A stretch of 64,000 bases of DNA from Myxococcota bacterium (GTDB lineage: Bacteria > Myxococcota_A > UBA796 > JAJRTE01): positions 33,521-97,520 of the forward strand of contig JAJRTE010000118.1 in the NCBI GenBank assembly GCA_024278455.1, in the 5' to 3' direction. Of this stretch, positions 9,348 to 60,067 are shown in pieces. The translations under genes and the position numbers were made by a program. Numbering within the stretch: the first letter of the stretch is position 1; each line of letters opens with the position of its first letter. The notes under the pieces were generated by a model. It made no database searches. It saw only the letters and a program-made list of their open reading frames with translations, and was not told the origin of the DNA.

Positions 9348-9366
9348 GCTGACCTTTGGAACGCGG

Positions 9367-33288: not shown

Positions 33289-33366
33289 GACATACCCCCG
33301 GGCTCTCAGCGTCCTTGAACAGATGTTTACCATGAAATCTCGATATCAACCACCGAAATTTCGTGG

Positions 33367-43805: not shown

Positions 43806-44906
43806 ATGGAGCGGTATGGCATGGCGTGGCTCGTGGATGCAGCCCAACTGACTACACGTCTCGGCAAGGCCCTCGTCTCGGGCCGTGTGCCAAACTACGT
43901 CATCGCCTTCGTGACCGGACACTGCAACATGTCCTGCGCCTTTTGCTGCCCGGCTTCCCGGTCCATCCGTGACGCGGATGAACTCGACCCGGACCAGTGG
44001 GGGCGCGCCTTGTCCGGGTGCGACGCACTGGTTCATCTCACCGTCACCGGCGGCGAGCCCTTCTTGCGCGACGACCTCCTCGACGTCGTCTCGAGTATGG
44101 TAGGTTCCAGCGGCGTTCCTCGGCTGAGCATCAACACCAACGGGTACTTCACGGGCAGGATCTTCGCCACCCTCGAGACGCTGTTGCGCCGGTTCCCGGG
44201 GGTCGACACCTGCCTGGCGATCTCCCTGGACGGACCTCGAGCCGTTCACGACGCGCTGAGAGGCATGCCCGGGGCGTTCACGCGGGCCCGATCCACCATC
44301 GACGAGGTGGACAGGCTGCGCTCGAGGTATCCTCGGCTCACGGTCCGTCTCACGTCGGTCCTACAGCCGGACAACGCAGATGTGCTGGGACCGTTCCTCG
44401 AGGAGACCGCCCTCTGGCCCGTCGACTTCCACGAGCTGGCCTTGATCCGTGACGTGCCGATCGAGGTTCAGCGCCAGGTGGTGGAAGCCTACCGCAGGCT
44501 CACCGCCGTGCAGCTCCGCCGGGCATCCCGCCGCTACCTCCAGACCATGGATTGGCGGCTCGCCCGGCAGCTCCGGCAGGACGTGTTGGACCAGACCGCC
44601 GAAGGGGCGAGACCGTTTGGTTGCCTCGCGGGCGGCCGGATGATCGAGGTGATGGCCGACGGCACCGTGCGCGGGTGCGAAATGGAGAAGATGCGGCCTC
44701 ACAGCAACCTGGGGCGGGTTGGGGGTGACGCACACACCATCGTGGACCTGCTGGCCGGCGAACCGGCGAGGCGGTTCCGGCGCAGGGCGGCGTCGTGCCA
44801 CTGTACGTTCGAGTGCGCACTGACCTGCAAGACCGTATTCACGCCTCGAGCATGGCCCCGCCTGTGGATGCCACGTCGCTTCGGGCCGGAACAGGAGGAC
44901 CGATGA
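43806..44906 (+). CDS. Radical SAM / SPASM-domain protein
   Basis: CxxxCxxC (GHCNMSCAFCC), GGEPFL, and a C-terminal Cys-rich SPASM-like region (CHCTFECALTC). Confidence 0.8.
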   Translation: MERYGMAWLVDAAQLTTRLGKALVSGRVPNYVIAFVTGHCNMSCAFCCPASRSIRDADELDPDQWGRALSGCDALVHLTVTGGEPFLRDDLLDVVSSMVGSSGVPRLSINTNGYFTGRIFATLETLLRRFPGVDTCLAISLDGPRAVHDALRGMPGAFTRARSTIDEVDRLRSRYPRLTVRLTSVLQPDNADVLGPFLEETALWPVDFHELALIRDVPIEVQRQVVEAYRRLTAVQLRRASRRYLQTMDWRLARQLRQDVLDQTAEGARPFGCLAGGRMIEVMADGTVRGCEMEKMRPHSNLGRVGGDAHTIVDLLAGEPARRFRRRAASCHCTFECALTCKTVFTPRAWPRLWMPRRFGPEQEDR

Positions 44907-45916
44907 ACCCGGTGGCGGTCAGCATTATCGTCCCCGCGCACAACGAAGCCTCGAGGCTCGATACGTGCTTGTCATCGATCGTCGAGATGTCCCGAACCAA
45001 GGGCTGGCAGGCACTGGTGGTGGACGACGGGAGCACCGACGAGACCGCCAAGGTCGCTCGAGGCGCGGGCCTACCGGTGATCCGAAACGAGACGCCACAA
45101 GGGGTGGCGGCGGCCCGCAACCTGGGAGCCAATCGCGCCGATGGCGACGTGCTGGTCTTCGTCGACGCCGATGTGGTGGCGCCGGCGGAAACACTCGAGG
45201 CCCTCGTCGCGCGGTTGGTGGACGATGCTGGCGTGCATGCTGTGGGTGCGTGGCCCGAAGTTTCGGACCTGTCGCCGGAATGGAGTGCCCGGTTCGTGGG
45301 CCTCCGCGCTGCCATGCCTTTCAAGATCGGGCCGCGATCGGACATCGAGTGCTTTTCCGCTTTCCAGTCCGAGTGCGGGGCCATCCGTCGCGAAACGTTC
45401 CAGGCCGTGGGAGGCTTCCCGGACCATCACCGGGGCGTTGGCATGGAAGAGTTCGAGATGGGCCACACTCTCGAGCGTCTCGGTTACCGGAATGTCATCC
45501 TGGCCGATGCCCACTACTACCACCATTTCAAACCGCTCGGTCCCCGGTGTCGCGAGCTGTACCGGCGAACGCGCCGGTGGGTTCCGCTCCTGCTCGACCG
45601 CGGGCGTCTCGAGTCCACCGGGGCGGTGGGAACTGGCCACGAGACCCTGTCCTGCGGGCTGTCCGTGGCCGCTGCCGCCGGGTTGGTGGTCGCGCCGTTT
45701 CACGCCGGCGGGCTGGTGTTGTCCGCTTCCGCCCTGGCTGCGCAAGGCTTGGTCGAGCGGCGGTTCCTGGCCCTGGCCCGGCGCACGTGCGGCCCCGCGA
45801 TGGCGCTGTACGCCCTGCCTGCGCTTCAGTGCATCAACCTGTCGATCGCCGCGGGGTTTGCGGCCGGGCTGGTCGACCAGGTCGCGCGCGGCGGCCGGAC
45901 GCCGGAGCAACGGTGA
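44903..45916 (+). CDS. Family 2 glycosyltransferase (GT-A fold)
   Basis: VSIIVPAHNEA ... VVDDGSTDET ... DxD (FVDAD). The start overlaps the stop of the preceding radical SAM gene. Confidence 0.8.
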   Translation: MNPVAVSIIVPAHNEASRLDTCLSSIVEMSRTKGWQALVVDDGSTDETAKVARGAGLPVIRNETPQGVAAARNLGANRADGDVLVFVDADVVAPAETLEALVARLVDDAGVHAVGAWPEVSDLSPEWSARFVGLRAAMPFKIGPRSDIECFSAFQSECGAIRRETFQAVGGFPDHHRGVGMEEFEMGHTLERLGYRNVILADAHYYHHFKPLGPRCRELYRRTRRWVPLLLDRGRLESTGAVGTGHETLSCGLSVAAAAGLVVAPFHAGGLVLSASALAAQGLVERRFLALARRTCGPAMALYALPALQCINLSIAAGFAAGLVDQVARGGRTPEQR

Positions 45917-45944
45917 TGGGGCGCTCCTGTTTCGGCGCAGCGCG

Positions 45945-45982
45945 CTGCGCCCCTGCCTCCCTCGCTCCTACTCGCTACTCGA
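45945..45982 (+). repeat. Partial copy of a roughly 30-bp GC-rich repeat motif (gYGCCCCTG ... CTCGCTaCTyC); see also 61951-62063
   Basis: tgcgcccctgcctccctcgctcctactcgctactcg aligns with the two direct repeats at 61958 and 62032. Confidence 0.3.
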
Positions 45983-46009
45983 GACGATGTCAAGATGGGT
46001 TGGGCGACC

Positions 46010-46471
46010 CTATTGGGGTCCTCGAGACGATCGCAACTCCCGATAACGTGTCTCTTCATGGAGTTCCGAATGGTGCGAACGGTGTTGGAAGCTCAACAAC
46101 CAATGGGAACCGGTCAGCAGGAATTGCCCGGTTTCGTCGCGGTTGGCGTCGATCCGCTCCTTGATGTAAGGAAGGAGGTCCGGGGCGTACTGCACCTCGT
46201 CGAATATCACGGGCGGTGGGTACATCTCGACGAAGGTACGCGGATCTCGCTGTGCAGCCCCGCGGACATCGGGTGGCTCCAGGGAGACGTAGCGGTGGTG
46301 CGTTCCGAAGAGGTGCAGCAGGAGCGTGGTCTTGCTGGCCAGGCGGGGTCCGGTGAGCACCAGGGCCGGGAACTCGGCGGCCGCTTCCTTGAGGATGGGC
46401 TCCAACGATCGCTCGATGTCGGCTGGACGCACGGGCAGCCTCCTTGGTGGAGACGCGCATTTCGAATGCAC
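46010..46471 (-). pseudogene. N-terminal fragment of an AAA_14/DUF4143-family ATPase with a degenerate Walker A
   Basis: ALVLTGPRLASKTTLL (the GK Gly is replaced by Ser), IFDEVQYAPDL, FLLTGSH, then loss of similarity after about 120 aa. Homologous to the intact copy at 32089..33288. Confidence 0.5.
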
Positions 46472-47079
46472 GAAGTCAGGTGCTGGAGGCGATTCACCGC
46501 AGGTTGAGCCGGTTGGCCACGGAAGAACGGCGTCTTCGCACGGCTTGGCGGTTGGCGACCGGCCTGGGATCCTCCCATCCGACGGAAAACGGGTTCACCT
46601 TCGACTGGAACGTCGGCGTGCCGTTTCTCCCAGGATCGTCCCTCAAAGGGCTCGCACTCGCCCATGCGCGCCTGATCGGGATGACCGAGGACCGTGTCAC
46701 GGCCCTGTTCGGGCTCCAGCGGGACGAGGACCGGGTGCGCGAGGACTGGAGCGCGTCGGGAGACCTGGTCTTCCTGCCCGCCTACCCCAGCCGGTGGCCG
46801 GACATCGAGGTGGATGTGGTCAACTGCCACCACCCGGAGTACCATGGAGATCGCCCGGGCAGCCGTCCGGCACGTCCGGCTGTGGACTACGAGAATCCCA
46901 ACCCTGTCTTCTTTCTCACCGTGGCTTCGGACCAGGACTTCATCTTCCGGCTGTTCAGCCGGACCGGAGACCTGCGGGCGGTCGAGCGCGGGTTCCAACT
47001 CCTCGAGGAGGGCCTGGGCACGCTTGGCGTCGGGGCAAAGACTGCCGTGGGGTATGGGTTGCTGGCGCCGGTCTCGTGA
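46444..47079 (+). CDS. RAMP-superfamily protein (Cas7 group, Cmr6/Csm3-like), solitary
   Basis: Cmr6-type N-terminal motif (TGLGSSHPTENGFTFDWNVGVPFLPGSSLKGLALAHARL) and a C-terminal glycine-rich loop (LGTLGVGAKTAVGYGLL). 211 aa with a TTG or GTG start. There is no other cas gene in the window. Confidence 0.65.
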   Translation: MVETRISNARSQVLEAIHRRLSRLATEERRLRTAWRLATGLGSSHPTENGFTFDWNVGVPFLPGSSLKGLALAHARLIGMTEDRVTALFGLQRDEDRVREDWSASGDLVFLPAYPSRWPDIEVDVVNCHHPEYHGDRPGSRPARPAVDYENPNPVFFLTVASDQDFIFRLFSRTGDLRAVERGFQLLEEGLGTLGVGAKTAVGYGLLAPVS

Positions 47080-47223
47080 CGAGTCGAGGCAGGTGGTGAT
47101 GTGCGGGCTCGTGCCGCGGAAGATCTCGAGAAGGAAGGGATTGTATTACAGATGGAACAACGTTCGTCATGCCCCGGTCGTGCGAGCACGAATGGACCGG
47201 AGAGGGACATCTTCAGGGCTCTA

Positions 47224-47388
47224 CTCTTCGGCACAAACCTGGCTCGAGGGAGAGGAGGGGGTGCAGTCGTAGTCTTGCGGCAAGAACCCGGCCGGGGCGT
47301 CCTCCCACGTGCCGGGCCAGAAGTAGTCCGGGAAGCCGTCGCCGTCCAGGTCCCAGGTCGCGCCGCTGTGTCCGGAGTCGTCCGGCAT
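47224..47388 (-). CDS. Candidate small ORF (55 aa): Asp/Trp/Tyr-rich peptide with an FG-GAP-like DxDGDGxxD loop
   Basis: MPDDSGHSGATWDLDGDGFPDYFWPGTWEDAPAGFLPQDYDCTPSSPSSQVCAEE. About 40 of the first 42 codons end in G or C (strong GC3 bias typical of real genes here). No clear Shine-Dalgarno. Absent from the track because it is under 60 aa. Confidence 0.3.
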
Positions 47389-47570
47389 TCGTAGGTCGGG
47401 GAGTCTTCGTCGTACGGGAGGCTGGACAAAAGGTCGTACGCCCTTCAGATGTCTCGAGACGAGGACCGTGAGCGGTTCGATCGGATGGCCGTGGTGCTCG
47501 ACTACGCGGCGATGTCATTCCCGACAAAGGTTCCGAACGGGCTTGAAATACCGCGCCGCGGCTGCTAGCC

Positions 47571-48947
47571 TTGAAAAGATACGTTGGTCATGGTGTGCAG
47601 CCGCGGCGTGCGACCTGCGGAAAACCCGGGTTTCTGAGAGTTGACTTGGATACGAAACGGATTCGGAAGCTGGACCGGTTCGCCGGAAAACCCTTGTGCC
47701 TGTCGTTGACCGTCCTCGAGCGGGTGCGTCGCACCGTTCGGCCGCGTGCCGGCGAGCCACCGAAAAAGATCCTGTTCCTCAAGCTCATCGAGATGGGCTC
47801 CACCGTGTTGGCCTGCCCGAGCTTCGAGGAGGCGACCGGCATGGTCGGTCGGGACAACCTGTACATCCTGGTGTTCGAGTCCAACCGCGCCATCGTGGAC
47901 ATATTGCCCTACTTCGAGCAGGACAATGTGTTGACAATCGACGATCGCAGTCTGCCCCGGTTCGTGCTCGGACTTCTCCGCGTGATGTGGCGAACCCGCC
48001 GGGAAAAGATCGACACCGCCATCGACATGGAAGGGCTCACGCGGGCGTCGGCGATCATCACCTACCTGACCGGGGCGAAGCGGCGGGTTGGATTCCACAA
48101 TTTCAGCGCCGAAGGTCCCTACCGGGGGCGGCTGTTCACCATCGAGCTGGGATACGCTTTCCAGCACCACACGGCCCGGATGTTCCTCTCCCTGGTGCGG
48201 GCCCTCGAGGCCCCGCTGGACCAGGTCCCCAAGCTCAAGCGAACCGTCGAAGTCAGCCCGGACGCCATGCCCCGTTTCGAGCCCACGTTGCAGGAGTTGG
48301 AAGAGATGGAGACAGGGCTCGATCAACGCTTCGTGGCGGGCTCGAGCGGAACCACGCCCCGGGGGCGCATTCGGGCCCGGCGAGGACCCAGGGTCATCTT
48401 GAACCCGAACTGCAACGACCAGCTCCCGCTCAGGAAATGGCCGGAAGATCGTTTCGTCGCCCTGGGCCGGCGACTGCTCGGAACCAGGGACGACCTCACG
48501 CTGATACTGACCGGCAACCCGTCGGAGCGGGCACCCTCCGAGGCGATGGCTCGAGCCATCGGGCCGGCGGACCGCGTGATCTCCATGGCCGGGGACACCT
48601 CGCTACGCCAGCTCTTGACCCTGTACCACCTGGCGGACGTCCTGGTCTCGAGCGATAGCGGTCCGTGCCACTTCGCCGCGCTGACACCCGTCCACGTGGT
48701 GGCCCTGTTCGGCCCGGAGACGCCGGCGCTATACAGCCCGCTGAGCGACCGGGTGACCACGATTTCCGCCGGCCTGGCATGCAGTCCCTGCCTCAACATG
48801 CTCAACCACCGGCTGTCGTCCTGTACCGACCCGGTGTGCATGCGAGAAATCCCGGTGGAGACCGTGCTGGGCGCCACGCTCGAGGCCCTGGCTTCGCGCC
48901 CGCAACGGCTCGATGCCGCCCAGGCGCGTGCTCCCGCAGGTTCATGA
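47571..48947 (+). CDS. Family 9 glycosyltransferase (ADP-heptose:LPS heptosyltransferase-like)
   Basis: KKILFLKLIEMGSTVLACP at the N-terminus and HLADVLVSSDSGPCHFAAL (GT9 signature). The exact start is uncertain (TTG/GTG candidates). Confidence 0.75.
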   Translation: MKRYVGHGVQPRRATCGKPGFLRVDLDTKRIRKLDRFAGKPLCLSLTVLERVRRTVRPRAGEPPKKILFLKLIEMGSTVLACPSFEEATGMVGRDNLYILVFESNRAIVDILPYFEQDNVLTIDDRSLPRFVLGLLRVMWRTRREKIDTAIDMEGLTRASAIITYLTGAKRRVGFHNFSAEGPYRGRLFTIELGYAFQHHTARMFLSLVRALEAPLDQVPKLKRTVEVSPDAMPRFEPTLQELEEMETGLDQRFVAGSSGTTPRGRIRARRGPRVILNPNCNDQLPLRKWPEDRFVALGRRLLGTRDDLTLILTGNPSERAPSEAMARAIGPADRVISMAGDTSLRQLLTLYHLADVLVSSDSGPCHFAALTPVHVVALFGPETPALYSPLSDRVTTISAGLACSPCLNMLNHRLSSCTDPVCMREIPVETVLGATLEALASRPQRLDAAQARAPAGS

Positions 48948-50092
48948 TGGACTTCCTCGAGACAGTAGGCCAGGCAGGCGAACACGGCGACGGGTCGGCA
49001 GACCGGACATCGAGTGCTTGGCGCGCTGTAACCCAGGCAGGCGTGATGATGGACGTGTGGCTCGCGAGGCACCTGGGCCGGAAGCCGCGCTACCTGCCCA
49101 TCGTGCTGGCATTCATGACGTTCCGCTGCAACCTGAGTTGTCGGGCGTGCGGGGTCGAGTTTCAGCACGACGAGACGAAGAGGGAACTGACCACCGGGGA
49201 ATGGAAGCGCGCCCTGGACTCGATGGCCAGGCTTCGCACGTCGATCATTTCCATTTCCGGTGGAGAGGCGCTCCTGCGGCCCGACATCTTCGAGATCATC
49301 GCCCATGCCCGGCGGCGAGGGATCGCGGTCCACCTGTGCAGCAACGCGACCCGTATCGGTGCGCGAACGGCCCGGCGGCTCGCCGAGGCCGGAACCCACA
49401 CGGTTTCCGTCTCCCTGGATGGCTCGAGGCCCGCCGTGCATGACGCCATCCGTGGCAAGGGGTCGTTCGAGGCCACCCTGGCCGGCATCCGGGCGCTCAG
49501 GCAGCACGCGCCGGGCGTGCGTATCGGCATCAACACCCTCGTTACCACCGTCAATGCCGCCGACATGCTGCCGTTGTTGGCTCTCGCCGAATCCCTGGGT
49601 GCCCACCAGGTGAAATTCGCGCCTGTGCACACCAATCTGCTCCACAGGGACAAGCCGGTGGACGCATACGGGGACCTGATGTTTCGCACCGAGGACGAAA
49701 TCCGCGGCCTCGAGATCGAGGTGGCCCGGTTGATTCGGGCGTCGAGACGATCACGGGTCCAGGTCAATCCGGCCGCCTACCTCGAGGGGATCGCCGACCT
49801 TTACCGGACGCCCAGGCGATTCCGGTGCTTCGCCGGCCATGCCGTCTGTGCCATCGGGCCGACCGGCGAGGTGACGCCCTGCTGCGACATGTCCGGAGGC
49901 CCGAGCATCAGGACCCGGCCGCTCGAGGAGATATGGCTCGGGGACGCCTTCCACGTGCTGCGGCAGGAGGTGAGGCATTGCCGCGCGCCGTGCTGGGACA
50001 CCACCAACACCGAGCTGAGCCTGCGGTTGTCGGTACGAAACCTGCCCGCCGTGCTCCCCGATACGTGGCGGGCGCTGCGATTCTACTTCTGA
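48944..50092 (+). CDS. Radical SAM / SPASM-domain protein
   Basis: CxxxCxxC (FRCNLSCRACG), SISGGEALL, and C-terminal SPASM cysteines (CFAGHAVCAIGPTGEVTPCCDM ... CRAPCW). The ATG overlaps the GT9 stop (ATGA). Confidence 0.8.
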   Translation: MMDFLETVGQAGEHGDGSADRTSSAWRAVTQAGVMMDVWLARHLGRKPRYLPIVLAFMTFRCNLSCRACGVEFQHDETKRELTTGEWKRALDSMARLRTSIISISGGEALLRPDIFEIIAHARRRGIAVHLCSNATRIGARTARRLAEAGTHTVSVSLDGSRPAVHDAIRGKGSFEATLAGIRALRQHAPGVRIGINTLVTTVNAADMLPLLALAESLGAHQVKFAPVHTNLLHRDKPVDAYGDLMFRTEDEIRGLEIEVARLIRASRRSRVQVNPAAYLEGIADLYRTPRRFRCFAGHAVCAIGPTGEVTPCCDMSGGPSIRTRPLEEIWLGDAFHVLRQEVRHCRAPCWDTTNTELSLRLSVRNLPAVLPDTWRALRFYF

Positions 50093-50103
50093 AAGGAACA
50101 GCG

Positions 50104-51297
50104 ATGATTCCACGACGGCGAGCCTACCTGGACCCGGACGAGTTTTCCTTCGTCGCGCGGATCCTCGAAACCGGGTCAACCCCGGTCCACGCGGTGGCAC
50201 GTCTCGAGGAGGCGGTGGCGTCTCGAGTCGGCACGGCCGCAGGGGTCGCAATGAGTTCAGGACGCCGGGCGATGGTCGCCATCCTGTCCCACCTCGAGGT
50301 CGGTCCCGGGGACGAGGTGGTGATACCGGCCTACACGCTCAAAGACCTGGTACCCCTCATCCAGGGACTCGGGGCCACAGCCGTGCCTGCGGACATCGAC
50401 CCCGAAACGTTCAATGTCTCCCGGGATACGGTCGCCCCGAGGCTGACATCGAGAACTCGAGCGATCCTGGTCGTGCACCTGTTCGGCGCACCGTGCGATA
50501 TCGAGGGCATCGTGGACCTGGGACGGAACCGAGGTATCCCCGTGATCGAGGACTGCGCCCACGCTCTGGGCAGCAGTGTCCATGGCCGGCAAGTCGGCTC
50601 ATTCGGCCGCGCCGCCTTCTTCAGCTTCGAAACCACCAAGCCGGTCAACACCTTCGGCGGCGGCATGGTGGTCACGAACGATCTCGAGTTGGCAGCAGCG
50701 GTCCGATCGGCCCGCGCGGGCGCCTGCATGTCTTTCGAGGCGTTCCGCCAGAAGACCACTTCCGTGGTGCTCGAGGACCTGCTGTTCCGCACCGGGTTGG
50801 CGGCCCCATTCCTGTTCTTGCTGGCCACTCCCAGGTTCAAGAGGTGGATGAACCAGGCGTACCGGCGGTTGCAGCACGCACCCCCGGCGGACACCGCCTA
50901 CCTGCCGGTCCAGGCCGAACTGGGCCTGCGGAAGCTGGCTTCCCTCGAGACGCGGGTCGCGGAACGGGAGCAGATTGCGCTCCGGTACCGGGCATTGCTC
51001 GCCCCCCGAATCACGATCCAGAAGGTCCCGGCCGGGTGCCGGAGCACCTGGTACTTCCTCGTGGCATTGCTGCCTCGAGACGCTGCTCCCGTGCGTCGCG
51101 CGCTCCTGCTCCGCGGCATCGACGCCGGGGTCGAGGACGAGATCGCCGATGACTGCGCAGCATGGCTCGAGCGGAGCGATTGTCCAGTGGTGGCGGACGT
51201 CGCCCGCCGTGCCATCGCGCTGCCGATCTACGAAGGGTTGCGGGAACGCGACCTTCGTCAGGTGGCACACACCTTGAATACCCTGGTCGCGGGATGA
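50104..51297 (+). CDS. DegT/DnrJ/EryC1/StrS-family PLP-dependent aminotransferase (sugar aminotransferase/dehydratase)
   Basis: PAYTLKDLVPLI, VVHLFGAPCDI, VIEDCAHALGS, SFGRAAFFSFETTKP (the PLP-lysine region). Confidence 0.8.
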   Translation: MIPRRRAYLDPDEFSFVARILETGSTPVHAVARLEEAVASRVGTAAGVAMSSGRRAMVAILSHLEVGPGDEVVIPAYTLKDLVPLIQGLGATAVPADIDPETFNVSRDTVAPRLTSRTRAILVVHLFGAPCDIEGIVDLGRNRGIPVIEDCAHALGSSVHGRQVGSFGRAAFFSFETTKPVNTFGGGMVVTNDLELAAAVRSARAGACMSFEAFRQKTTSVVLEDLLFRTGLAAPFLFLLATPRFKRWMNQAYRRLQHAPPADTAYLPVQAELGLRKLASLETRVAEREQIALRYRALLAPRITIQKVPAGCRSTWYFLVALLPRDAAPVRRALLLRGIDAGVEDEIADDCAAWLERSDCPVVADVARRAIALPIYEGLRERDLRQVAHTLNTLVAG

Positions 51298-51382
51298 CGG
51301 GGAGCAAGGCGCGGGGGGCGGAGCAGGACAGGACGGCACCGGTAACCCTGAGCGCGCTGACTCGGACATGGCGGGGCGGGGG

Positions 51383-52795
51383 CTACCCGAACGCCAGCAT
51401 GGCTCGAGCGCCTCGCAAATGCACCTTCCACTCCGTCCAGGTCCTCATGCCCATGGCACGCCGGAACAGGTAGCGCGGCCTGAGGTAGAAGGCGCGATAG
51501 GAACGGTCCAGGAACGCCTGGTATTCCTCGGCGCTCAGACCCTCCGGGACGTACACCAGGGCGTTGTGATCCAACGTGGAACTCTGTTCGAAATCGAACT
51601 GGTATCCTCGAGCCGACAGCTCTTCGTAGAACGTCGTGCCCGGGAAAGGCACGAACTTGTTGAAATGGGCGAAGTCCAGGTCGAGTTCCCGGGCGAACGC
51701 CAGGGTCCGTTCCAGGGTCTCCCGGGTTTCGGCGGGTGAGCCAACCAGGAAGTCCGCGCGCACCCGCAGCCCGGCTTGCCTCGCCCATTGCACCGCGCGC
51801 CGGTTCTGCGCCGCCGTGTTACCCTTGTTCAATGTCTTCAGGATGGCGTCGTCCCCGGACTCGAGCCCGAAGAGCACCTGCCAGCAGCCGGCGTCCTTCA
51901 TCATCGAAAGCATGTCGAGGTCCACGGCGTTGACTCGAGTCAGGCAGGTCCAGGGAAGCCGGGGGCGGAAACGGCGCAATTCGCGACACAACCGCTCGAG
52001 ACGGCGGCGGTTGAGGGTGAAGGTATCGTCGAAGAAACGGATTTCCCGCGCGCCGTACTTGCCGGCCAGGAGTTCGATCTCCCCCATGACGTTCTCGACG
52101 GAGCGCTCCCGGTAGCGCTCTCCGAACACGGCCCGGTCGCAGAAGTTGCACCGGGAGGGACAGCCTCGAGATGTCATGACGTGGGCGAGGGGGAGTCGGC
52201 GCAGGGATGCCGGGCAGGGCTCGTAGGCTTCCAGCGGGGGCAGGAGGTGGCGGGCCGGGTAGGGAATCGTGTCCAGGTCTTTCACGAACGGCGCGGGCCC
52301 GGTCCAGCAGGGCTTGCCGCCGGCCTCGAATACCAGCCCGGGAATCGACTCCGGCTGCGGTCCCCCGCCCTCGAGATGCGCAAGCAAGGCGGAAAAGGTC
52401 GTCTCGCCCTCCCCCAGGACCAGGAAGTCGAACCGGCCGGATTCGATGGTCTCTTCGGGCATGGCGGTGGGGTGGGACCCGCCGGCCACGAACGCCGCGC
52501 CGGGAATGATGCGCCGGAGGATGTCCGCGGTCCTGACAGCGTTGCTGAAGGAAGGCGTGGTGACGCTGACGCCGACCACGTCAGGCCGAAAGCTGCGTCC
52601 TTCCACCGAGATAGCTTCCCACGGAAGGCCTCGAGCACAGTCCAGGATGTGGACATCGTGGCCGTCCCGCTCGGCCACGGCAGCCAGGTAGGCCAGGCCC
52701 AACGACGGAATGATGTTCTCCACCCCGGAGAAGAGCTGGCGCTGCCCGCCGATGTCGGTGGCGCCAAAGGGCACGTCCACCAGCAGCACTTTCAT
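51383..52795 (-). CDS. B12-binding-domain radical SAM protein (class B cobalamin-dependent radical SAM)
   Basis: N-terminal cobalamin-binding Rossmann-like domain (KVLLVDVP ... GLAYLAAV ... PDVVGVSVTT), then CPSRCNFC and the downstream radical SAM core. Confidence 0.85.
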   Translation of the reverse strand: MKVLLVDVPFGATDIGGQRQLFSGVENIIPSLGLAYLAAVAERDGHDVHILDCARGLPWEAISVEGRSFRPDVVGVSVTTPSFSNAVRTADILRRIIPGAAFVAGGSHPTAMPEETIESGRFDFLVLGEGETTFSALLAHLEGGGPQPESIPGLVFEAGGKPCWTGPAPFVKDLDTIPYPARHLLPPLEAYEPCPASLRRLPLAHVMTSRGCPSRCNFCDRAVFGERYRERSVENVMGEIELLAGKYGAREIRFFDDTFTLNRRRLERLCRELRRFRPRLPWTCLTRVNAVDLDMLSMMKDAGCWQVLFGLESGDDAILKTLNKGNTAAQNRRAVQWARQAGLRVRADFLVGSPAETRETLERTLAFARELDLDFAHFNKFVPFPGTTFYEELSARGYQFDFEQSSTLDHNALVYVPEGLSAEEYQAFLDRSYRAFYLRPRYLFRRAMGMRTWTEWKVHLRGARAMLAFG

Positions 52796-52999
52796 CGCTC
52801 GACCTCGTTTCCACACCGCACCCGCAACCGCTCGTGCCGGTCCCGGGGGACCCGGCTCGACCGCATACCGCCCTGCACATTCCGGGATTGTGTCCAGTAT
52901 GAGAAGACCCGGCGGTCTCCCTGGGTGCGCCTGCGTTCCGGGTGAAAGGACCTCGTCGCGGGGCTGACGCCGCCGGGACGGGGTCCTGTCGGCTCCCTG

Positions 53000-53563
53000 C
53001 TACAAGATACGGCCTCCCACGGCCTCCATCAGCCCCGCGTGGGGGGCGGGAATGACCTCGATGTTGGTGACCATGCCCGGTTCGGCGGCCTCCTCGAGGT
53101 ACCTGGCGGCCTCCTCGACCTCGTACAAGGGGCCGGTGATGAGGAAAAAGGCCTTCCCACCGAGCCCCTGGGCCAGGCGCAGATCGAGGAGCCGTACCGC
53201 GTTGTGCTTCAGCGCCTGGTCTGCCAGAACGACCGCGGCGGACACCGAGAAGGTCTCGACAATGACCACCGAATCGATCTCCTGGTCCTGGTTGCCACCG
53301 GTCATGGCGGGGAAAACCTCCTCGCTGATGTTCGGGATGAACAGGCTGTCGACTACCGCCTCGCCGCCGTAGTGCAATCCCTCTTCCATCGCCTCCTGGA
53401 CCTCGCGCTCGCCACCCGCCACGAGAACCATGTACTTGCCCGGGCACAGGCTGTGAGACTCGAGCACGGTGATCCGGGCCTTCTTGAGCATGACATCATG
53501 AACGAGGATGCCTCGAGCAACGCTGTTGGTCTCCACGAGGCCGAGTGCTGGGTATTTCATCAT
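53000..53563 (-). CDS. Tandem-BMC-domain microcompartment shell protein, PduT-like (possible Fe-S pore ligand in CPGK)
   Basis: Two BMC domains (ALGLVETNSVARGI ... ; VVIVETFSVSAAV ...). The LCPGKYMVLVAGG motif corresponds to the Fe-S-ligating Cys of PduT. 187 aa. Confidence 0.8.
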   Translation of the reverse strand: MMKYPALGLVETNSVARGILVHDVMLKKARITVLESHSLCPGKYMVLVAGGEREVQEAMEEGLHYGGEAVVDSLFIPNISEEVFPAMTGGNQDQEIDSVVIVETFSVSAAVVLADQALKHNAVRLLDLRLAQGLGGKAFFLITGPLYEVEEAARYLEEAAEPGMVTNIEVIPAPHAGLMEAVGGRIL

Positions 53564-54879
53564 CCACCCATAATGACGATACGGTCGCTCGAGACCTCCA
53601 CCACCTGTCCGGAGATGGACGCGTGGTGGTTGGCTCCGAGCTTGCCGGCTGGAATGCGCGCGATCAACTGCCCCTTGGAAACGTGATCGCCTCTCCGGAC
53701 CACCGGCTCCGAAGGCGCCCCGCTCTGCTGCGTCAGGGAGATGGCGACTCGAGGCGGGTCCTCCATCCGGGTCAGGGGCAGGTCATGGTCCTCGTAGGGC
53801 TTCAACTGGTACCGGCGCGTGATCCTGTCCTTGCCGATCTTGCGATACTTGTTGAACTCGTGGAGCTGCCTGGGGGCATGGTGGTGCGGATTCTTGACCC
53901 CGGCCGCCCGCAACCGCTCGAGGATCTCGGCGTAGGCCCGCCTGGGACTGAGATACATCGGGCAGGCAAACTCGCACAGCCCGCACTGGGAGCACAGGAA
54001 CGCCGCGGTCATCACCGACGTGGGCTGCTCCAGTTTGTATGCCAGCGTTCGCATCACCCTGTGGGGCTCGATATGGTGCCCCTGCATGTACCTCGAGCAG
54101 GCGTCAGTGCAGTAGCGGCACTGGCAGCAGGCGGCCACGCTCCGCCGGATCATCGCTTCCATGGTGATCTGCTTCTGCTGGACCACCGGGTGATCTCTCG
54201 GCAGGAACAGGATTCCGCTCGTCGTCTTGTTGACGGAAGCACCGGTGCCGACAATCCGGCCCATCATCGGTCCGCCGTCGATGATGGCGATGTCCTCCAC
54301 CGGGATCCTGGGCTGACAGCGCAGCAGAAGATCCAGCACCGGCGTGCCGATGGGCGCGATGATGACTTGCGGGTGTTCGATTTCCCCTGCCAGGGTCACG
54401 ATCCGGTCGGTCACCACACGACCGCGAGCAGCTCGAGCCACCTGGACCATGGTCAACACGTTGCTGACGACCGCGCCGACCTGGAGTGGAATGCCGCCCT
54501 CCGGGACGATTCGTCCGGTGAGGTCCGCGAGGAGTATGTGCTCGTCGCCGGCCGGGTAGGTGTTGCCCATCAGGCCAAGCTGGACGTTGCCGCGTCCGTT
54601 CAACTGCTCCGTCAGGGCCTCCACCGCTCCGTGGTAGTGTTTCTTGACCCCGATCAGGCCTCGAGACGCGCTGGTGTGGGACATGATCAGCAGCAGGCCC
54701 TCGAGGATTTCGTCGGCGTAGTGCTCCATGACCCGCTGGTCCGACGCGAGCAGGGGCTCGCATTCGGCCCCGTTGGCCAGGACCAGGTCCACCTTGGCAT
54801 CGATCTTCACGTGGGTAGGGAATCCCGCTCCGCCGCAACCGATGATGCCGGCGTCACGAACGATATCGACAAGAGACAT
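53560..54879 (-). CDS. PduS-like cobalamin reductase / RnfC-family flavin and Fe-S oxidoreductase
   Basis: GIIGCGGAGFPTHVKI (NADH/FMN-binding motif of PduS/RnfC). Two 4Fe-4S ferredoxin motifs (CCQCRYCTDAC, CSQCGLCEFACP). Its stop overlaps the PduT-like start. Confidence 0.8.
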   Translation of the reverse strand: MSLVDIVRDAGIIGCGGAGFPTHVKIDAKVDLVLANGAECEPLLASDQRVMEHYADEILEGLLLIMSHTSASRGLIGVKKHYHGAVEALTEQLNGRGNVQLGLMGNTYPAGDEHILLADLTGRIVPEGGIPLQVGAVVSNVLTMVQVARAARGRVVTDRIVTLAGEIEHPQVIIAPIGTPVLDLLLRCQPRIPVEDIAIIDGGPMMGRIVGTGASVNKTTSGILFLPRDHPVVQQKQITMEAMIRRSVAACCQCRYCTDACSRYMQGHHIEPHRVMRTLAYKLEQPTSVMTAAFLCSQCGLCEFACPMYLSPRRAYAEILERLRAAGVKNPHHHAPRQLHEFNKYRKIGKDRITRRYQLKPYEDHDLPLTRMEDPPRVAISLTQQSGAPSEPVVRRGDHVSKGQLIARIPAGKLGANHHASISGQVVEVSSDRIVIMGG

Positions 54880-54912: not shown

Positions 54913-55518
54913 TTACAGAATAGCGCGGGGCGGTGCAACCGAAAAGAGGCTGTGCAGGTCGGGTCTCGGGACTTCTCCGCCAAGGGCTCTCCGGCGGAGG
55001 GCCGTGACAGGGAGACGCAGGCGTCGTCTCGCGGGAGTGATCCGAGTGGATGAGTCACCGAACCACAGTGCTCCCTGGGTGTCTCGCGCGATGAAGACAG
55101 CCTCGGGAGACAGGCCGTGCTGTGGGCCGAACGGTCCTACCACCCCGTCCTGGGGCGTGATGGCGTAGGTCAACCGAAGGTCCTGGTCGCCGCCTCCACC
55201 GGTGGCGCCCCCCTTTCTACGCTCCGATACGAGTGCCCAGATGTTGCCCCGGCTGTCCTGGCCGAGCGCGCAGATGTTCGTCTCGACGGCGTTGCTCGAA
55301 GAGACGCTTGGTGGCGAGGAAGTACCGTGGGAAATGGCCCGCATTACCCGCGGCTTGCGATGCGACCGCTCCCCGTGCGATGACGGACCGGCAAAGCACG
55401 GGACGCCTTCGAGTGCCGGTGATTTCGGGCACCAGGGCGGCGTGTCGGTGGTTGCGGACATTGGGGAGCAGGTTTGGTGTTCGGGCACACGAGGGGTGGG
55501 ACTGCGAGGAGTTCGCAC
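54913..55518 (-). pseudogene. Truncated duplicate of a fragment of the large beta-propeller gene at 56480..60067
   Basis: It encodes SSSNAVETNICALGQDSRGNIWALVSERRKGGATGGGGDQDLRLTYAITPQDGVVGPFGPQHGLSPEAVFIARDTQGALWFGDSSTRITPA, identical except for one residue to an internal segment of the 1289-aa protein. The flanks are unrelated. Confidence 0.45.
55028..55306. repeat. Copy 1 of a roughly 279-bp near-identical direct repeat
   Basis: About 99% identical to 57115-57392. The two mismatches are gggAgacagg vs gggCgacagg and ctCcgatac vs ctTcgatac. Confidence 0.85.
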
Positions 55519-56479: not shown

Positions 56480-59400
56480 CTACTCTCCTCTCGACCCGGT
56501 TCGGGTTCCCTGGGTCTTCGGCCCAAGTGGGTGCAGATAGCGAACGATGGCCACAAGAAGGAAGGGAAGCAGGGCGTGGACAATCGCCAGGCGGGGTAGG
56601 GCACTTCCCAAGAAAACGGGGCCTGGCTGGGCAAGGCAATCCACGAAAAGATGGTTCCCAAGAAAACCGTTCTCCGTGATCTGGCCGCGAACTCCTCCGG
56701 CAACGAGGAACCAGGCCCCCGTGCTCAGGAGCGTCAAGAGAAGAAAGAGAACCGCCACACCCCAGTCCCGACTTTCAAGGTGCCTTCGGTTCCCGGCCAG
56801 GCGAACCATGAGGGAGACAAGGCCCAGGGCATGGCCACCGACAAGGACAAGGCGTGAGTCGATCTGGTCGAGAAGTCCGAGAATGGGGAAGCTCGGGTCG
56901 AATCGCAAGTACGACACCATGGTTGCCAATCCGCCCGCAAGGACCCACGTTGAGAGTTCCCAGGCAAAAACCATGTCCCACAGCGAGGCCTCCTTGCCGG
57001 CGCCGAGTTTTCTCCAACTCCAAACCAGCAGGCATACCCAGACGATGACACTCGCAAGCTCGACTCCGAATGCCCCGCACCAGCCCATGGCGGTCCTTTC
57101 GGGACCGCAGCGATTCGCGGGAGTGATCCGAGTGGATGAGTCACCGAACCACAGTGCTCCCTGGGTGTCTCGCGCGATGAAGACAGCCTCGGGCGACAGG
57201 CCGTGCTGTGGGCCGAACGGTCCTACCACCCCGTCCTGGGGCGTGATGGCGTAGGTCAACCGAAGGTCCTGGTCGCCGCCTCCACCGGTGGCGCCCCCCT
57301 TTCTACGCTTCGATACGAGTGCCCAGATGTTGCCCCGGCTGTCCTGGCCGAGCGCGCAGATGTTCGTCTCGACGGCGTTGCTCGAAGAGACGTTGTCGTT
57401 GCCAGCAGGAAGGAGAGGGGGCGCGGCACGCAGCCGCTTCGTCCATGCCTCGACTGGCTGGAAGCTGTGCGACCCGGTGTCGCCGATTCTCCCACGGAAG
57501 AGCTTGTCGCCTTGCCCCCATGCCCACAGCCGGTTGGTGTGGTCCAGGAAGATGTGTTCGATGTCGATGTCGTTCCGCTGCCCGTCCGCCGCCGGTCCCT
57601 CTCCGGTGCTGCAGGGCCTCAGATGTACGGTGACCGCAGGACTCTTTCGAGCGTCGCCCGCCGCGGTCGAGGCGCCAGCGGTGTTTTGGTAGGTGACATC
57701 GAAACAGCTCAAACCGTCCCTGACGACCCAAAGCCTTGCTGACTGTTGGTCCTGGACTTCCACGGCAATGCTCTTGACCTTCGCATTGGCCCTCCTGGCG
57801 TCGGTTTTCCGAACCCGGGGCATATCGACGGTTTGCAGGTAGGCTGCACGCTGGGTTCGGTATCTCGTCCAGTCCGGTGGGCCGGTGTAGATCCCTCGAC
57901 TGGTGGCCACCCAGAGCACACCGTTCTCGTCCACCAGCATTTTCGCTATCTCTCTCTGTGCCGCGACATCCACGATGAGGCCTGACCGGCGCTTCTGACC
58001 GGGCTTCTGGAACAGGACGGGTTCGGGAGAGTCGGAGGGACAACGCGGGCCCTCTCCGAGCGCGACTCTCGAGGCCCCCACGTTCCACCGATAGAGGCGG
58101 TCAGCGTAGGCGATGTACAACCACTTTCCGACCATGGCCAGGGCGCGAACAGACTGCGGGCTCATGAGCGTTCTGCATGCCCTGGTGCTCGCGCCCGTGC
58201 CGCTCTTGGTTTCCTCGCTCGTCGTTTTCAAGACACCACGTGCTGGATAGGTCGAGCAGGCCCAAAAGGGAGCAAGTGTGTGGCCCTGCACGAGGGCGTG
58301 TACGCCGCCGGAAGAATCACCAACCCAGAATCGTCCGGCCCGGTCTGGTGAGGCGGCGGTGATGTGGGCGTCCCGGGGTCCGAGCGATCCTTCCCCCGGT
58401 GGCACTCTGCGCTTACAGGTTACGCCGGGGTCCCGCTTCTCGCTCAAGTTGTGGGTACACTCGTATCTCCCTGCGTCGGTTACGACGAGCACGGGGTCAC
58501 CCACATCGCCGTCAAGGGCGCGGATCGCGTTGATATGCAGGTGCGTACCTCCGGAAACCGGCTGGAGCGTCGCGGCGCCCACGGTTACTGTCTTCTTCTT
58601 GTCCAGAATCGGCGGATCGTCCTTCCCTGCTTTTTTCCTCGGGAGCCACGACAGGCCGCGGTCATGGCCTACCCAGACGCCGTCGCGTAGTGGCAGGATG
58701 GCGTGGATCGTGGAGAGGTTCGTGATTTGCTCGAGATCGAGACGCCTGCATGCCTGTTGGTCCGTTTCCGGCTCAGGCGCTCCGGGGAGACCCCCTGTGG
58801 CGGCCGCACGGCGGCAGGCGATCAACGCGGTTCCCCCTCGGCCCCACACCCAGCCCGGTTGGAAAGGATCGGCGACCGTGCTGGAGAGTTCCAGGCCGGT
58901 CGGCACTTGAAGGGGATGGCTCCATCGATCGCATGGTGGCCCGGCGTCAGGCGCGTCCCACTCCGGGAGAGAGCGTTCGAATACCGTGTAGCGCATGTCC
59001 AGACTTTCCAGCACCCACAGTTGCTGAAAGGTGCCCAGGTCCAGTATCGCAATATCGTCTGCCGATACGCTGTCGAGCCCGCGGGCCGCGGTTTCACGAA
59101 GGACGGTACCGAGCTTCTGGTCGACCTCCTGAACAGCCAACACACGGCCGTCCGGCAGCACCTCCCAGGCACAACGCGCGGGATAGATCGGATCCGCGAT
59201 GACCCGATAGCTCCGTTGGCGCACCCGGCGCTCTTCGACCTGTTGTAGGGATGGACGCGTTGCCGGTCGTGTGCACAACAGGGTCCCCGGACCGTCATAT
59301 CGGCACACCCCCCGGGCTGTCAGAATCCAGAGGACTCCCTCACGACCGTCCAGGGATATGACCGTGTCATCGGGCAAGCCGTCGAGGTAGCTCAGTCTGG

Positions 59401-60067
59401 ACCCGGCTTGCTCGAAAGGATCATTCAGGATGGTGACACCACCTCGTCCCCCGATAGCCCAGTAGTGGCCAAAGGGTTGGATAGCACTGACACTGACAGG
59501 CGCCGTCATGGCATCACGAGTGAGATAGTCCGACCTCCTGATGAAGAACGGCATCGGAACATCATGATGACATGCTGACTTTGTGCCGCGGTAGACGTCC
59601 ATGCGAGCACTGGCGGTAGGAGCGGCACGGTTTGCCAACGTCAACGGCCAGTCGAAGGTCGTTCCACAGGGTGGCTGGAAAGGGATCTTCCAGTTCTTGC
59701 TAGGATCCATTCCTCCCGGTTGGAGAAGCAGCCAGTGGGTGCTTGCGCGTGGAGACCACTGCGAACAGCGCAGCCTGACGCCCAGTGTGTGTCGGGTGGG
59801 CTCACGGGGTACCTGGACGAGGTCGAGTGTACCATCGCAGGTCACCTCGGAAGCCGGCGGGTCCTTGCCGACGTTCGCGACGACGGCCGTGGCCTGAGGT
59901 GCCAGGACCCAGGGCAGAAGAGCAATGAGCACATACGTGATGGGTCTGACGGCACGGGCGGCTGAGGAAGGCAGCAGGAGAAGTCGTTGCACGCGCACCA
60001 CCTCTTCAGGGAAGAGCCGTCCGGTTGCCCAGCAACGGCCGTGGGAGCCGTACCTCCTCGCTGCCAT
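56480..60067 (-). CDS. Large Reg_prop-like beta-propeller repeat protein with a signal peptide and a C-terminal polytopic membrane domain (module 2)
   Basis: Signal peptide (VRPITYVLIALLPWVLAPQATA). Reg_prop-like repeats (VLWILTARGVCRYD, RFWVGDSSGGVHAL, VLWVATSRGIYTGP, RLWVVRDGLSCFDV). About 200 aa C-terminal region with 5-6 TM helices. Paralogue of 41274..43487 (FDWPLTLANR / VPMPFFIRRSDYL). Confidence 0.7.
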   Translation of the reverse strand: MAARRYGSHGRCWATGRLFPEEVVRVQRLLLLPSSAARAVRPITYVLIALLPWVLAPQATAVVANVGKDPPASEVTCDGTLDLVQVPREPTRHTLGVRLRCSQWSPRASTHWLLLQPGGMDPSKNWKIPFQPPCGTTFDWPLTLANRAAPTASARMDVYRGTKSACHHDVPMPFFIRRSDYLTRDAMTAPVSVSAIQPFGHYWAIGGRGGVTILNDPFEQAGSRLSYLDGLPDDTVISLDGREGVLWILTARGVCRYDGPGTLLCTRPATRPSLQQVEERRVRQRSYRVIADPIYPARCAWEVLPDGRVLAVQEVDQKLGTVLRETAARGLDSVSADDIAILDLGTFQQLWVLESLDMRYTVFERSLPEWDAPDAGPPCDRWSHPLQVPTGLELSSTVADPFQPGWVWGRGGTALIACRRAAATGGLPGAPEPETDQQACRRLDLEQITNLSTIHAILPLRDGVWVGHDRGLSWLPRKKAGKDDPPILDKKKTVTVGAATLQPVSGGTHLHINAIRALDGDVGDPVLVVTDAGRYECTHNLSEKRDPGVTCKRRVPPGEGSLGPRDAHITAASPDRAGRFWVGDSSGGVHALVQGHTLAPFWACSTYPARGVLKTTSEETKSGTGASTRACRTLMSPQSVRALAMVGKWLYIAYADRLYRWNVGASRVALGEGPRCPSDSPEPVLFQKPGQKRRSGLIVDVAAQREIAKMLVDENGVLWVATSRGIYTGPPDWTRYRTQRAAYLQTVDMPRVRKTDARRANAKVKSIAVEVQDQQSARLWVVRDGLSCFDVTYQNTAGASTAAGDARKSPAVTVHLRPCSTGEGPAADGQRNDIDIEHIFLDHTNRLWAWGQGDKLFRGRIGDTGSHSFQPVEAWTKRLRAAPPLLPAGNDNVSSSNAVETNICALGQDSRGNIWALVSKRRKGGATGGGGDQDLRLTYAITPQDGVVGPFGPQHGLSPEAVFIARDTQGALWFGDSSTRITPANRCGPERTAMGWCGAFGVELASVIVWVCLLVWSWRKLGAGKEASLWDMVFAWELSTWVLAGGLATMVSYLRFDPSFPILGLLDQIDSRLVLVGGHALGLVSLMVRLAGNRRHLESRDWGVAVLFLLLTLLSTGAWFLVAGGVRGQITENGFLGNHLFVDCLAQPGPVFLGSALPRLAIVHALLPFLLVAIVRYLHPLGPKTQGTRTGSRGE
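57115..57392. repeat. Copy 2 of the roughly 279-bp near-identical direct repeat (within the module-2 beta-propeller gene)
   Basis: See copy 1 at 55028-55306. Confidence 0.85.

What the first reader, a model, noticed from the sequence alone, without database searches (positions are those of the whole stretch)
46444..47079. Solitary Cmr6/Csm3-like RAMP (Cas7-group) gene with no other cas genes or CRISPR array
The ORF carries the hallmark RAMP features: a Cmr6-type N-terminal segment (GLGSSHP..NG.......GVPFLPGSSLKG) and a C-terminal glycine-rich loop (GVGAKTAVGYG).

It sits alone between a GT2 gene and a GT9 gene. A Walker-A-degenerate AAA_14 ATPase fragment lies on the opposite strand, overlapping its 5' end. 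A partial copy of a GC-rich repeat motif lies about 460 bp upstream.

It could be the last remnant of a decayed type III locus. Alternatively, it could be a RAMP co-opted into a non-CRISPR role inside the radical-SAM/glycosyltransferase island. A free-standing functional Cmr6 homologue would be unusual.
Basis: partly seen in the sequence, partly recalled or inferred. Interest (0 to 1): 0.7.

Follow-up and report, generated by a model that had tools for sequence, protein, structure and literature searches.

The report
Truncated leftover of a Cmr6 gene
The ORF is a real relative of the CRISPR type III-B protein Cmr6, but it is a 5'-truncated gene piece joined to a second broken gene inside a 1.6-kb insert that close relatives lack, so it is most likely ordinary genomic debris rather than a new stand-alone system.

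Summary
ORF 46444-47079(+) scores 110.7 bits on TIGR01898 Cmr6 (cutoff 51.1), folds as a Cmr6/Csm3-type RAMP in a confident model, and is the only cas-like sequence in the 64-kb window. There is no CRISPR array.

All homologues are longer (median 287 aa). The ORF starts at position 68 of a 263-position Cmr6 profile, and its nearest relative (65% identity, 302 aa, in a cmr4-cmr5-cmr6 operon) has about 100 extra N-terminal residues. The upstream frame contains stops.

The missing 5' part is replaced by the first ~115 codons of an AAA_14 ATPase on the opposite strand. That fragment lacks its DUF4143 half and carries a ruined Walker A (QSGKT to LASKT).

Both fragments lie in a ~1.6-kb segment (45869-47533). 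Two syntenic relatives lack it: their GT2 and GT9 genes are directly adjacent. In 80 reference Cmr6 loci, every locus with enough upstream flank carries cmr5/cmr4/cmr3/cas10.

Best reading: a non-functional remnant of a type III-B locus, or a patchwork of foreign DNA, specific to this lineage. The retained RAMP core shows no decay, so the truncation is recent or a residual function cannot be excluded. Interest is low.

The parts
45869..47533 (.). Lineage-specific segment of about 1.6 kb between GT2 and GT9. It holds both gene fragments plus about 630 bp without recognisable genes.
   Evidence: blastn of relative L084 against the window aligns 7845-9853 with 43857-45868 and 9943-13693 with 47534-51278. 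That leaves about 90 bp in L084 against 1665 bp in the window. L085 also has the GT2 3' end directly upstream of GT9.
46444..47079 (+). 5'-truncated cmr6. It has a complete RAMP core but lacks the N-terminal ~70-100 residues. Alternative starts are GTG 46447 and GTG 46480; the public annotation P0001 (199 aa) uses the latter.
   Evidence: TIGR01898 110.7 bits. Homology to full-length Cmr6 starts at residue 64 of 266 (L003) and 103 of 302 (L001). It starts at profile position 68 of 263. The upstream frame has stops. The AF2 model has pLDDT 86.8, and the top Foldseek hits are Cmr6 chains.
46091..46432 (-). 5' fragment (about 115 codons) of an AAA_14/DUF4143-type ATPase gene. Its Walker A is degenerate, and the 3' two-thirds including DUF4143 are missing. 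The mechanical ORF is 46010-46471.
   Evidence: Pfam AAA_14 E 2e-15. PADLOC PDC-S01 positions 12-123 of 422. It is 77% identical to L086 AAA_14 residues 7-116, after which homology ends, and there is no DUF4143 nearby. 7 of 58 conserved columns are lost, including QSG to LAS in Walker A.
46437..46443 (-). Shine-Dalgarno-like AAGGAGG of the ATPase fragment, immediately abutting the first codon of the Cmr6 ORF. It marks the breakpoint between the two fragments (about 46433-46474).
   Evidence: Upstream sequence listing and sequence.
47080..47533 (.). Remainder of the insert with no recognisable gene. It contains a weak FG-GAP-like 55-aa ORF at 47221-47388(-).
   Evidence: Pfam on six ORFs gave only FG-GAP at E 0.012, below cutoff. 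There is no similarity to any fetched locus or to the rest of the window.
44795..45916 (+). GT2 glycosyltransferase, left neighbour. It belongs to the conserved island, not to the insert.
   Evidence: Pfam Glycos_transf_2 E 3e-29. Syntenic in L084.
47571..48947 (+). GT9 glycosyltransferase, right neighbour. It is preceded by a promoter-like motif (about 47541-47572) conserved in L084 and L085.
   Evidence: Pfam Glyco_transf_9 E 5e-24. Orthologues are 74-75% identical. The motif is aligned.

Best explanation
The ORF is the 3' two-thirds of a type III-B cmr6 gene, left behind as a non-functional fragment. It sits head-to-head against the 5' third of an unrelated AAA_14/DUF4143 ATPase gene that is itself truncated and mutated. 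Both lie in a ~1.6-kb segment present between GT2 and GT9 of a conserved radical-SAM/glycosyltransferase cluster only in this lineage.

The simplest history (inferred) has two steps. First, a mobile or defence-island segment carrying a cmr operon next to a divergently oriented ATPase entered the GT2-GT9 spacer. Second, deletions removed cmr1-cmr5 with the first ~70-100 codons of cmr6, and also the 3' part of the ATPase. Alternatively, a patchwork of foreign fragments was captured directly.

[quoted passage not shown] With no Cmr partners and no crRNA source in the window, the fragment is not expected to do anything there. Its intact RAMP core and lack of decay indicate that the truncation is recent.
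For: Shown by tool results:
1. It is a genuine Cmr6.
2. It is truncated. The 106 homologues have a median length of 287 aa. The window ORF starts at profile position 68 of 263, against a median of 18. Alignments start at residue 103 of 302 in the nearest homologue. The conserved N-terminal AN.GL..DR..W block is absent. The upstream frame has stops.
3. The nearest homologue (65% identity) lies in a cmr4-cmr5-cmr6 operon. All 80 reference loci with enough upstream flank carry cmr5/cmr4/cmr3/cas10.
4. No other cmr/cas sequence occurs in any frame of the window, and there is no array.
5. The neighbouring ATPase is a fragment. It has lost 7 of 58 conserved positions, including three consecutive Walker A residues (99th percentile of its family), and has no DUF4143.
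6. Two syntenic relatives show the empty site.
7. It is a singleton. Only the same gene (P0001) is closer than 65% among 5.8 billion proteins.

From the literature: Cmr6 with Cmr1 caps the complex and is needed only for target capture by an assembled Cmr2-5 crRNP (PMC4215187).
Against: - The retained part shows no sign of decay. It has no internal stop in 211 codons. It keeps 46 of 48 highly conserved columns, the same as its intact sister. A relative-rate comparison shows no acceleration.
- The RAMP core is complete. The ORF begins about 12 residues before the N-truncated P. furiosus Cmr6 construct that was crystallised (4W8V). The model is confident, with pLDDT 86.8 and pTM 0.84.
- It is co-oriented with the flanking operon, so read-through transcription is plausible.
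- Shine-Dalgarno motifs are rare in this window, so their absence says little.
- Only 64 kb of a 121-kb contig, and none of the rest of the genome, could be examined. A complete type III locus elsewhere is not excluded.
- The direction of the indel (insertion here versus loss in both relatives) rests on two relatives only.
Confidence: 0.78

Rival explanations
1. The truncated Cmr6 core is expressed from operon read-through and has a function of its own. It could be an RNA-binding protein or a decoy/inhibitor of type III complexes, independent of cas genes.
For: - Complete, confidently modelled RAMP core.
- No decay at conserved positions and no rate acceleration.
- Same orientation as the flanking operon.
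- Composition identical to the neighbours, GC3 0.82.
Against: - No orthologue or family of such short proteins exists.
- It is absent from the same island in two relatives.
- It is joined to an obviously decayed gene fragment.
- It has no promoter-like site or Shine-Dalgarno motif of its own.
- The nearest relative is an ordinary operon-encoded Cmr6 with the same composition, so lack of decay is equally explained by recency.
Confidence: 0.07
2. It is a spare or partial duplicate subunit that works in trans with a complete type III-B locus located elsewhere in the genome, outside the window.
For: The core is intact. Only about half of the 121-kb contig, and none of the rest of the genome, could be inspected.
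Against: It lacks the N-terminal segment that every operon-encoded homologue in this clade carries. Across 80 reference loci cmr6 is always encoded in the operon, so there is no precedent for a detached copy.
Confidence: 0.08
3. The 1.6-kb segment is an assembly chimera of a metagenome-assembled genome, not real genomic sequence.
For: The source looks like a MAG contig, with a single NCBI record. The segment is a patchwork of unrelated fragments.
Against: Syntenic sequence continues on both sides, so two artefactual joins within 1.6 kb would be needed. The fragments have the same GC3 (0.82) as the flanking genes.
Confidence: 0.05

Closest known systems
Cmr6 (TIGR01898), Cas7-group RAMP subunit of type III-B Cmr effector complexes
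   Same: Sequence and fold agree. It scores 110.7 bits against a cutoff of 51.1. It is 65% identical to an operon-encoded Cmr6. The G-rich loop GxGAKTAVGYG and the PGSSLKG motif are present. Top structural matches are A. fulgidus, S. islandicus and P. furiosus Cmr6.
   Different: It lacks the N-terminal ~70-100 residues present in homologues. It has no cmr1-5/cas10 partners and no CRISPR array within 64 kb. It has no upstream region of its own.
Orphan or degraded cas gene remnants (isolated cas pseudogenes left after locus loss)
   Same: A single truncated cas gene with no array or partners, next to another broken gene, specific to one lineage.
   Different: The retained part is still undecayed. 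It lies inside an otherwise conserved biosynthetic operon rather than in an obvious defence island.
VIPR systems (stand-alone Vipr RAMP + Vap + vrRNA; bioRxiv 10.64898/2026.04.26.720920)
   Same: A RAMP-fold protein without other cas genes or an array, flanked by some non-coding DNA.
   Different: Vipr proteins form a separate early-branching clade found by structure rather than sequence, whereas this ORF is a close sequence relative of canonical Cmr6. No YNNGG tandem tract occurs near it: the longest run in the window is 4 units, far away, against 9-16 in vrRNAs.
AAA_14/DUF4143 ATPases (PADLOC candidate PDC-S01)
   Same: The opposite-strand fragment matches positions 12-123 of 422 and is 77% identical to homologues.
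   Different: Only the first ~115 residues are present. Walker A is mutated and DUF4143 is absent. A full-length paralogue, 32% identical, lies at 32089-33333(-).

Membership tests
Cmr6 (TIGR01898 / type III-B RAMP) | Sequence score above the curated family cutoff | tested here: met
   110.7 bits against a cutoff of 51.1, E 1e-31, profile positions 2-194 of 195. PADLOC Cmr6 E 1.5e-34.
Cmr6 (TIGR01898 / type III-B RAMP) | RAMP (RRM-like) fold with C-terminal glycine-rich loop | tested here: met
   AF2 model with pLDDT 86.8 and pTM 0.84. Foldseek top hits are Cmr6 chains 9l7c_I, 3x1l_H, 6s6b_I and 4w8v_A, followed by Csm3. The GVGAKTAVGYG motif is present.
Cmr6 (TIGR01898 / type III-B RAMP) | Full-length architecture, including the N-terminal segment seen in homologues of this clade | tested here: not met
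   The ORF starts at profile position 68 of 263, against a median of 18 in 106 homologues. It aligns from residue 103 of 302 in the nearest homologue. The upstream frame has stops.
Cmr6 (TIGR01898 / type III-B RAMP) | Encoded in a cmr operon with cas10/cmr2, cmr3, cmr4 and cmr5 (and usually cmr1) | tested here: not met
   No hit to any of these in 883 six-frame segments of the window, by tblastn or by PADLOC. Every reference locus with enough upstream flank has them. Sequence beyond the 64-kb window could not be examined.
Cmr6 (TIGR01898 / type III-B RAMP) | A CRISPR array supplying crRNA | tested here: not met
   No array was found by TRF, repeat search, Rfam CRISPR-DR models or a k-mer array finder that detects arrays in the reference loci. 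This applies to the window only.
Cmr6 (TIGR01898 / type III-B RAMP) | [quoted passage not shown] | not testable with these tools
   This is a biochemical property (PMC4215187).
VIPR (Vipr RAMP + vrRNA) | vrRNA with 9-16 YNNGG tandem units in flanking intergenic DNA | tested here: not met
   The longest perfect run in the window is 4 units, at 56.6 and 58.3 kb. None lies near 45.9-47.6 kb.
VIPR (Vipr RAMP + vrRNA) | Minimal RAMP belonging to a clade separate from Cas5/6/7 | tested here: not met
   It is 65% identical to a canonical operon-encoded Cmr6.
AAA_14/DUF4143 ATPase (for the opposite-strand fragment) | Intact Walker A (GxxxxGKT) and a C-terminal DUF4143 domain | tested here: not met
   GPRLASKT replaces GPRQSGKT, and homology ends after about residue 116. 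DUF4143 matches only the paralogue at 32-33 kb.

The most novel reading that the evidence does not exclude
A naturally N-truncated Cmr6 RAMP core, captured into a radical-SAM/glycosyltransferase operon, is expressed by read-through. It is retained because it does something without any Cas partner, for example binding RNA or interfering with incoming type III complexes.
Probability: 0.06. Interest if true: 0.6.

Novelty: already known. Interest (0 to 1): 0.15.

Why it matters
It matters little biologically. It is an example of how defence-gene debris can lodge between genes of a conserved operon.

Its practical value is as a caution. A strong profile hit to a Cas family, with all hallmark motifs, can come from a gene fragment. 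Length relative to homologues and comparison with syntenic relatives settle the question quickly.

If the minority reading were true (a functional stand-alone Cmr6 core), it would be a rare case of a Cas7-group subunit recruited outside CRISPR.

Tried and rejected
- Exact look-ups of the window's own proteins (the ORF, P0001, P0107) to reach the rest of the 121-kb contig found nothing on record. Sequence outside the window stayed out of reach.
- A genome-contig scan with the single protein found no relative. The second scan, with an alignment, gave only ordinary cmr loci.
- VIPR-type stand-alone RAMP was considered and rejected.
- The 37-nt two-copy repeat at 61952-62062 was considered as a degenerate mini-array and rejected. 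It has two copies at 84% identity, no ATTGAAAC-type 3' end like the arrays next to related cmr loci, and no Rfam CRISPR-DR hit.
- dN/dS against the nearest homologue was not computed. At 65% protein identity synonymous sites are saturated, and most divergence predates the truncation. A relative-rate and conserved-column test was used instead.
- A recurrent ATPase-cmr arrangement that would support a single-deletion scenario was looked for. AAA_14 ATPases lie near cmr genes in only 2 of 83 loci, both downstream of cmr6.
- The non-coding parts of the insert match nothing in the fetched loci or the window.
- The promoter/terminator scan of 45.7-47.8 kb found nothing.
- A Shine-Dalgarno survey showed such motifs are rare here, so their absence is uninformative.
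- The apparently short complete homologue P0081 (228 aa) sits 230 bp after cmr5, so its start is probably under-called.

Full report
**1. The observation**

The window has a 211-codon ORF at 46444-47079(+) with a TTG start. GTG codons at 46447 and 46480 are alternative starts. The ORF contains the quoted motifs.

It matches the following families:
- NCBIfam TIGR01898 (Cmr6) at E 1e-31, 110.7 bits against a curated cutoff of 51.1, covering profile positions 2-194 of 195.
- Four PADLOC Cmr6 models at E 1e-29 to 1e-34.
- Pfam RAMPs at E 8.7e-11.

An AlphaFold2 model built on 70 aligned sequences is confident, with mean pLDDT 86.8 and pTM 0.84. Its best matches among solved structures are Cmr6 chains of A. 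fulgidus, S. islandicus and P. furiosus, followed by Csm3.

The neighbours are as stated. A GT2 gene lies at 44795-45916(+), a GT9 gene at 47571-48947(+), and an AAA_14 match on the minus strand at 46010-46471.

**2. Is it alone?**

Within the 64 kb it is alone.
- PADLOC scans of 48 coding-like ORFs gave Cas hits only for this ORF.
- tblastn with Cmr1, Cas10, Cmr3, Cmr4 and Cmr5 from a complete related locus found nothing.
- Profile HMMs for these five families were built from 80 reference loci. A search against all 883 stop-to-stop segments of at least 40 aa in six frames found nothing except the ORF itself.
- No CRISPR array was found by Tandem Repeats Finder, by the repeat finder, by Rfam, or by a k-mer array finder that readily detects arrays next to the reference cmr loci.

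A solitary cmr6 is unusual against the baseline. In 80 Cmr6 loci from GTDB species representatives, every locus with enough upstream sequence has cmr5, cmr4, cmr3 and cas10 in front of cmr6.

**3. The ORF is a fragment**

The 106 homologues found among 5.8 billion proteins have a median length of 287 aa. Apart from P0001, which is the same gene called from GTG 46480, and one weak partial hit of 189 aa, none is shorter than 228 aa.

On a 263-position Cmr6 profile the window ORF starts at position 68, while the median homologue starts at 18. tblastn alignments start at residue 64 of 266 in L003 Cmr6 and at residue 103 of 302 in the nearest homologue P0002.

The conserved N-terminal block (consensus AN.GL..DR.L..W) is absent. 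The same reading frame upstream of 46444 contains stop codons.

P0002 is 65% identical and lies in a cmr4-cmr5-cmr6 operon.

What is retained is the whole RAMP core. ORF residue 20 corresponds to residue 8 of the crystallised, N-terminally truncated P. furiosus Cmr6 (4W8V, 246 aa) and to residue 92 of A. fulgidus Cmr6 in 3X1L.

**4. What replaces the missing 5' part**

The minus strand directly upstream encodes the first ~115 residues of an AAA_14/DUF4143-type ATPase. It covers PADLOC PDC-S01 positions 12-123 of 422 and is 77% identical to a homologue over residues 7-116.

Its likely start is the GTG at 46432, preceded by AAGGAGG at 46437-46443. That Shine-Dalgarno-like motif abuts the first codon of the Cmr6 ORF. 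The breakpoint between the two fragments therefore lies within about 46433-46474.

Homology to ATPases stops at 46091. The DUF4143 half is nowhere nearby.

The fragment has lost 7 of 58 positions that are at least 90% conserved in its family. These include three consecutive Walker A residues, QSG changed to LAS. Its family has a mean of 2.2 such losses and a 99th percentile of 6.8. It is a decayed pseudogene.

A full-length but only 32% identical paralogue lies at 32089-33333(-).

**5. Comparison with relatives**

The GT9 protein has orthologues at 74-75% identity. One of them lies on a 78-kb contig (L084) with the same cluster: radical SAM, GT2, GT9, radical SAM/SPASM, DegT aminotransferase, B12-radical SAM, BMC, RnfC-like and alpha-2-macroglobulin.

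At the DNA level the alignment is as follows:

| L084 | Window |
|---|---|
| 7845-9853 | 43857-45868 |
| 9943-13693 | 47534-51278 |

This leaves about 90 bp in L084 against 1665 bp in the window.

In a second relative (L085) the GT2 3' end is likewise directly upstream of GT9. A promoter-like motif (CTTGAAAT, 17 bases, TAGCCT) precedes GT9 in all three genomes.

The two fragments, plus about 630 bp of unidentifiable sequence, therefore form a segment specific to this lineage. They are not a conserved part of the island.

The unidentifiable sequence matches nothing in the fetched loci or the window. Its only family hint is an FG-GAP-like 55-aa ORF below threshold.

**6. State of the retained Cmr6 part**

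It shows no decay.
- There is no internal stop.
- It keeps 46 of 48 columns that are at least 90% conserved in 58 outgroups, the same number as P0002.
- Mean identity to the outgroups is equal (0.459 for the window ORF, 0.458 for P0002).
- 5 sites depart from the outgroup majority only in the window ORF, against 6 only in P0002.

Its composition (GC3 0.82) equals that of the flanking genes, and also that of the P0002 contig. Composition therefore does not date the event.

This means either that the truncation is recent or that the core is still under constraint. With a single genome these cannot be separated.

**7. Mechanism and verdict**

[quoted passage not shown] It is required for target capture by an already assembled Cmr2-5 crRNP (PMC4215187).

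The best-supported reading (about 0.78) is that this is non-functional debris. The grounds are:
- There are no partners and no array in the window.
- The conserved N-terminal segment is missing.
- There is no upstream region of its own.
- No orthologues exist.
- It is fused to a decayed gene fragment.
- Relatives show an empty site.

It would be the remnant of a type III-B locus that entered the GT2-GT9 spacer and was then almost entirely deleted, or a captured patchwork of foreign fragments.

One neat but unproven scenario is a single deletion running from just upstream of a divergent ATPase gene into cmr6. No recurrent ATPase-cmr arrangement supports it: AAA_14 ATPases lie near cmr genes in only 2 of 83 loci, both downstream of cmr6.

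Rival readings are an independently functional core (0.07), a subunit acting in trans with a locus elsewhere (0.08), and an assembly chimera (0.05).

The recently described VIPR stand-alone RAMP systems were considered and excluded. The ORF is a close sequence relative of canonical Cmr6, and there is no YNNGG repeat tract nearby.

**8. Limits**

The source contig is 121 kb, and only 64 kb were available. Its proteins are not indexed for context look-up. A complete type III locus elsewhere in the genome is therefore not excluded. The direction of the indel rests on two relatives.

**9. Novelty and interest**

This is a truncated copy of a well-known gene family in a lineage-specific insert, so it is of an already known kind and of low interest (0.15). 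The most novel reading not excluded is a functional, partner-less Cmr6 core, with probability about 0.06.

Noticed in passing
window 55029-55306 and 57115-57392; segment 54940-62482: A 278-nt direct repeat at 99% identity. The second copy lies inside a 1289-aa Reg_prop ORF (56480-60349, minus strand). The whole 7.5-kb segment between the RnfC-like gene and the alpha-2-macroglobulin gene is replaced by 137 bp in relative L084.
   Followed up: partly
window 61952-61988 and 62026-62062: A 37-nt direct repeat in two copies (84% identity) with 74-nt spacing, in an intergenic region. The spacing is CRISPR-like, but there are only two copies, no ATTGAAAC-type end and no Rfam hit.
   Followed up: partly
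window ~47541-47572; L084 ~9933-9965; L085 ~93-125: A promoter-like motif (CTTGAAAT, 17 bases, TAGCCT) directly upstream of the GT9 gene, conserved in three genomes. It suggests GT9 has its own promoter within the cluster.
   Followed up: no
window 45978, 46021, 47453 (+); 8878, 32384, 37777, 44086 (-): The 10-mer CTCGAGACGA occurs 7 times against 0.49 expected. Three copies lie in the non-coding parts of the 1.6-kb insert, one near each end. This could be microhomology involved in the rearrangements, or a codon-usage effect.
   Followed up: no
window 32089-33333 (-): A full-length AAA_14 + DUF4143 ATPase (414 aa) with an intact Walker A, only 32% identical to the fragment next to the Cmr6 ORF.
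   Followed up: partly
L086 6001-7227; L087 6001-7288: The best 120 homologues of the ATPase fragment are all 245 aa or shorter, at 63-78% identity across several phyla. In two long contigs the gene is split into separate AAA_14 and DUF4143 ORFs. This suggests frequent frameshifts or pseudogenisation, or a programmed split, in this subfamily.
   Followed up: partly
window 43806-54879; L084 7827-17204: A conserved cluster of two radical-SAM/SPASM enzymes, GT2, GT9, a DegT aminotransferase, a B12-binding radical-SAM enzyme, a BMC-domain shell protein and an RnfC/Nuo51-like protein. It is syntenic with a relative, and the names on GT9 homologues point to the Planctomycetota/Verrucomicrobiota/Lentisphaerota group.
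   Followed up: no
window 47221-47388 (-): A 55-aa ORF with a DLDGDGFPDY motif and a sub-threshold FG-GAP match (E 0.012). It may be a third gene fragment in the insert.
   Followed up: partly
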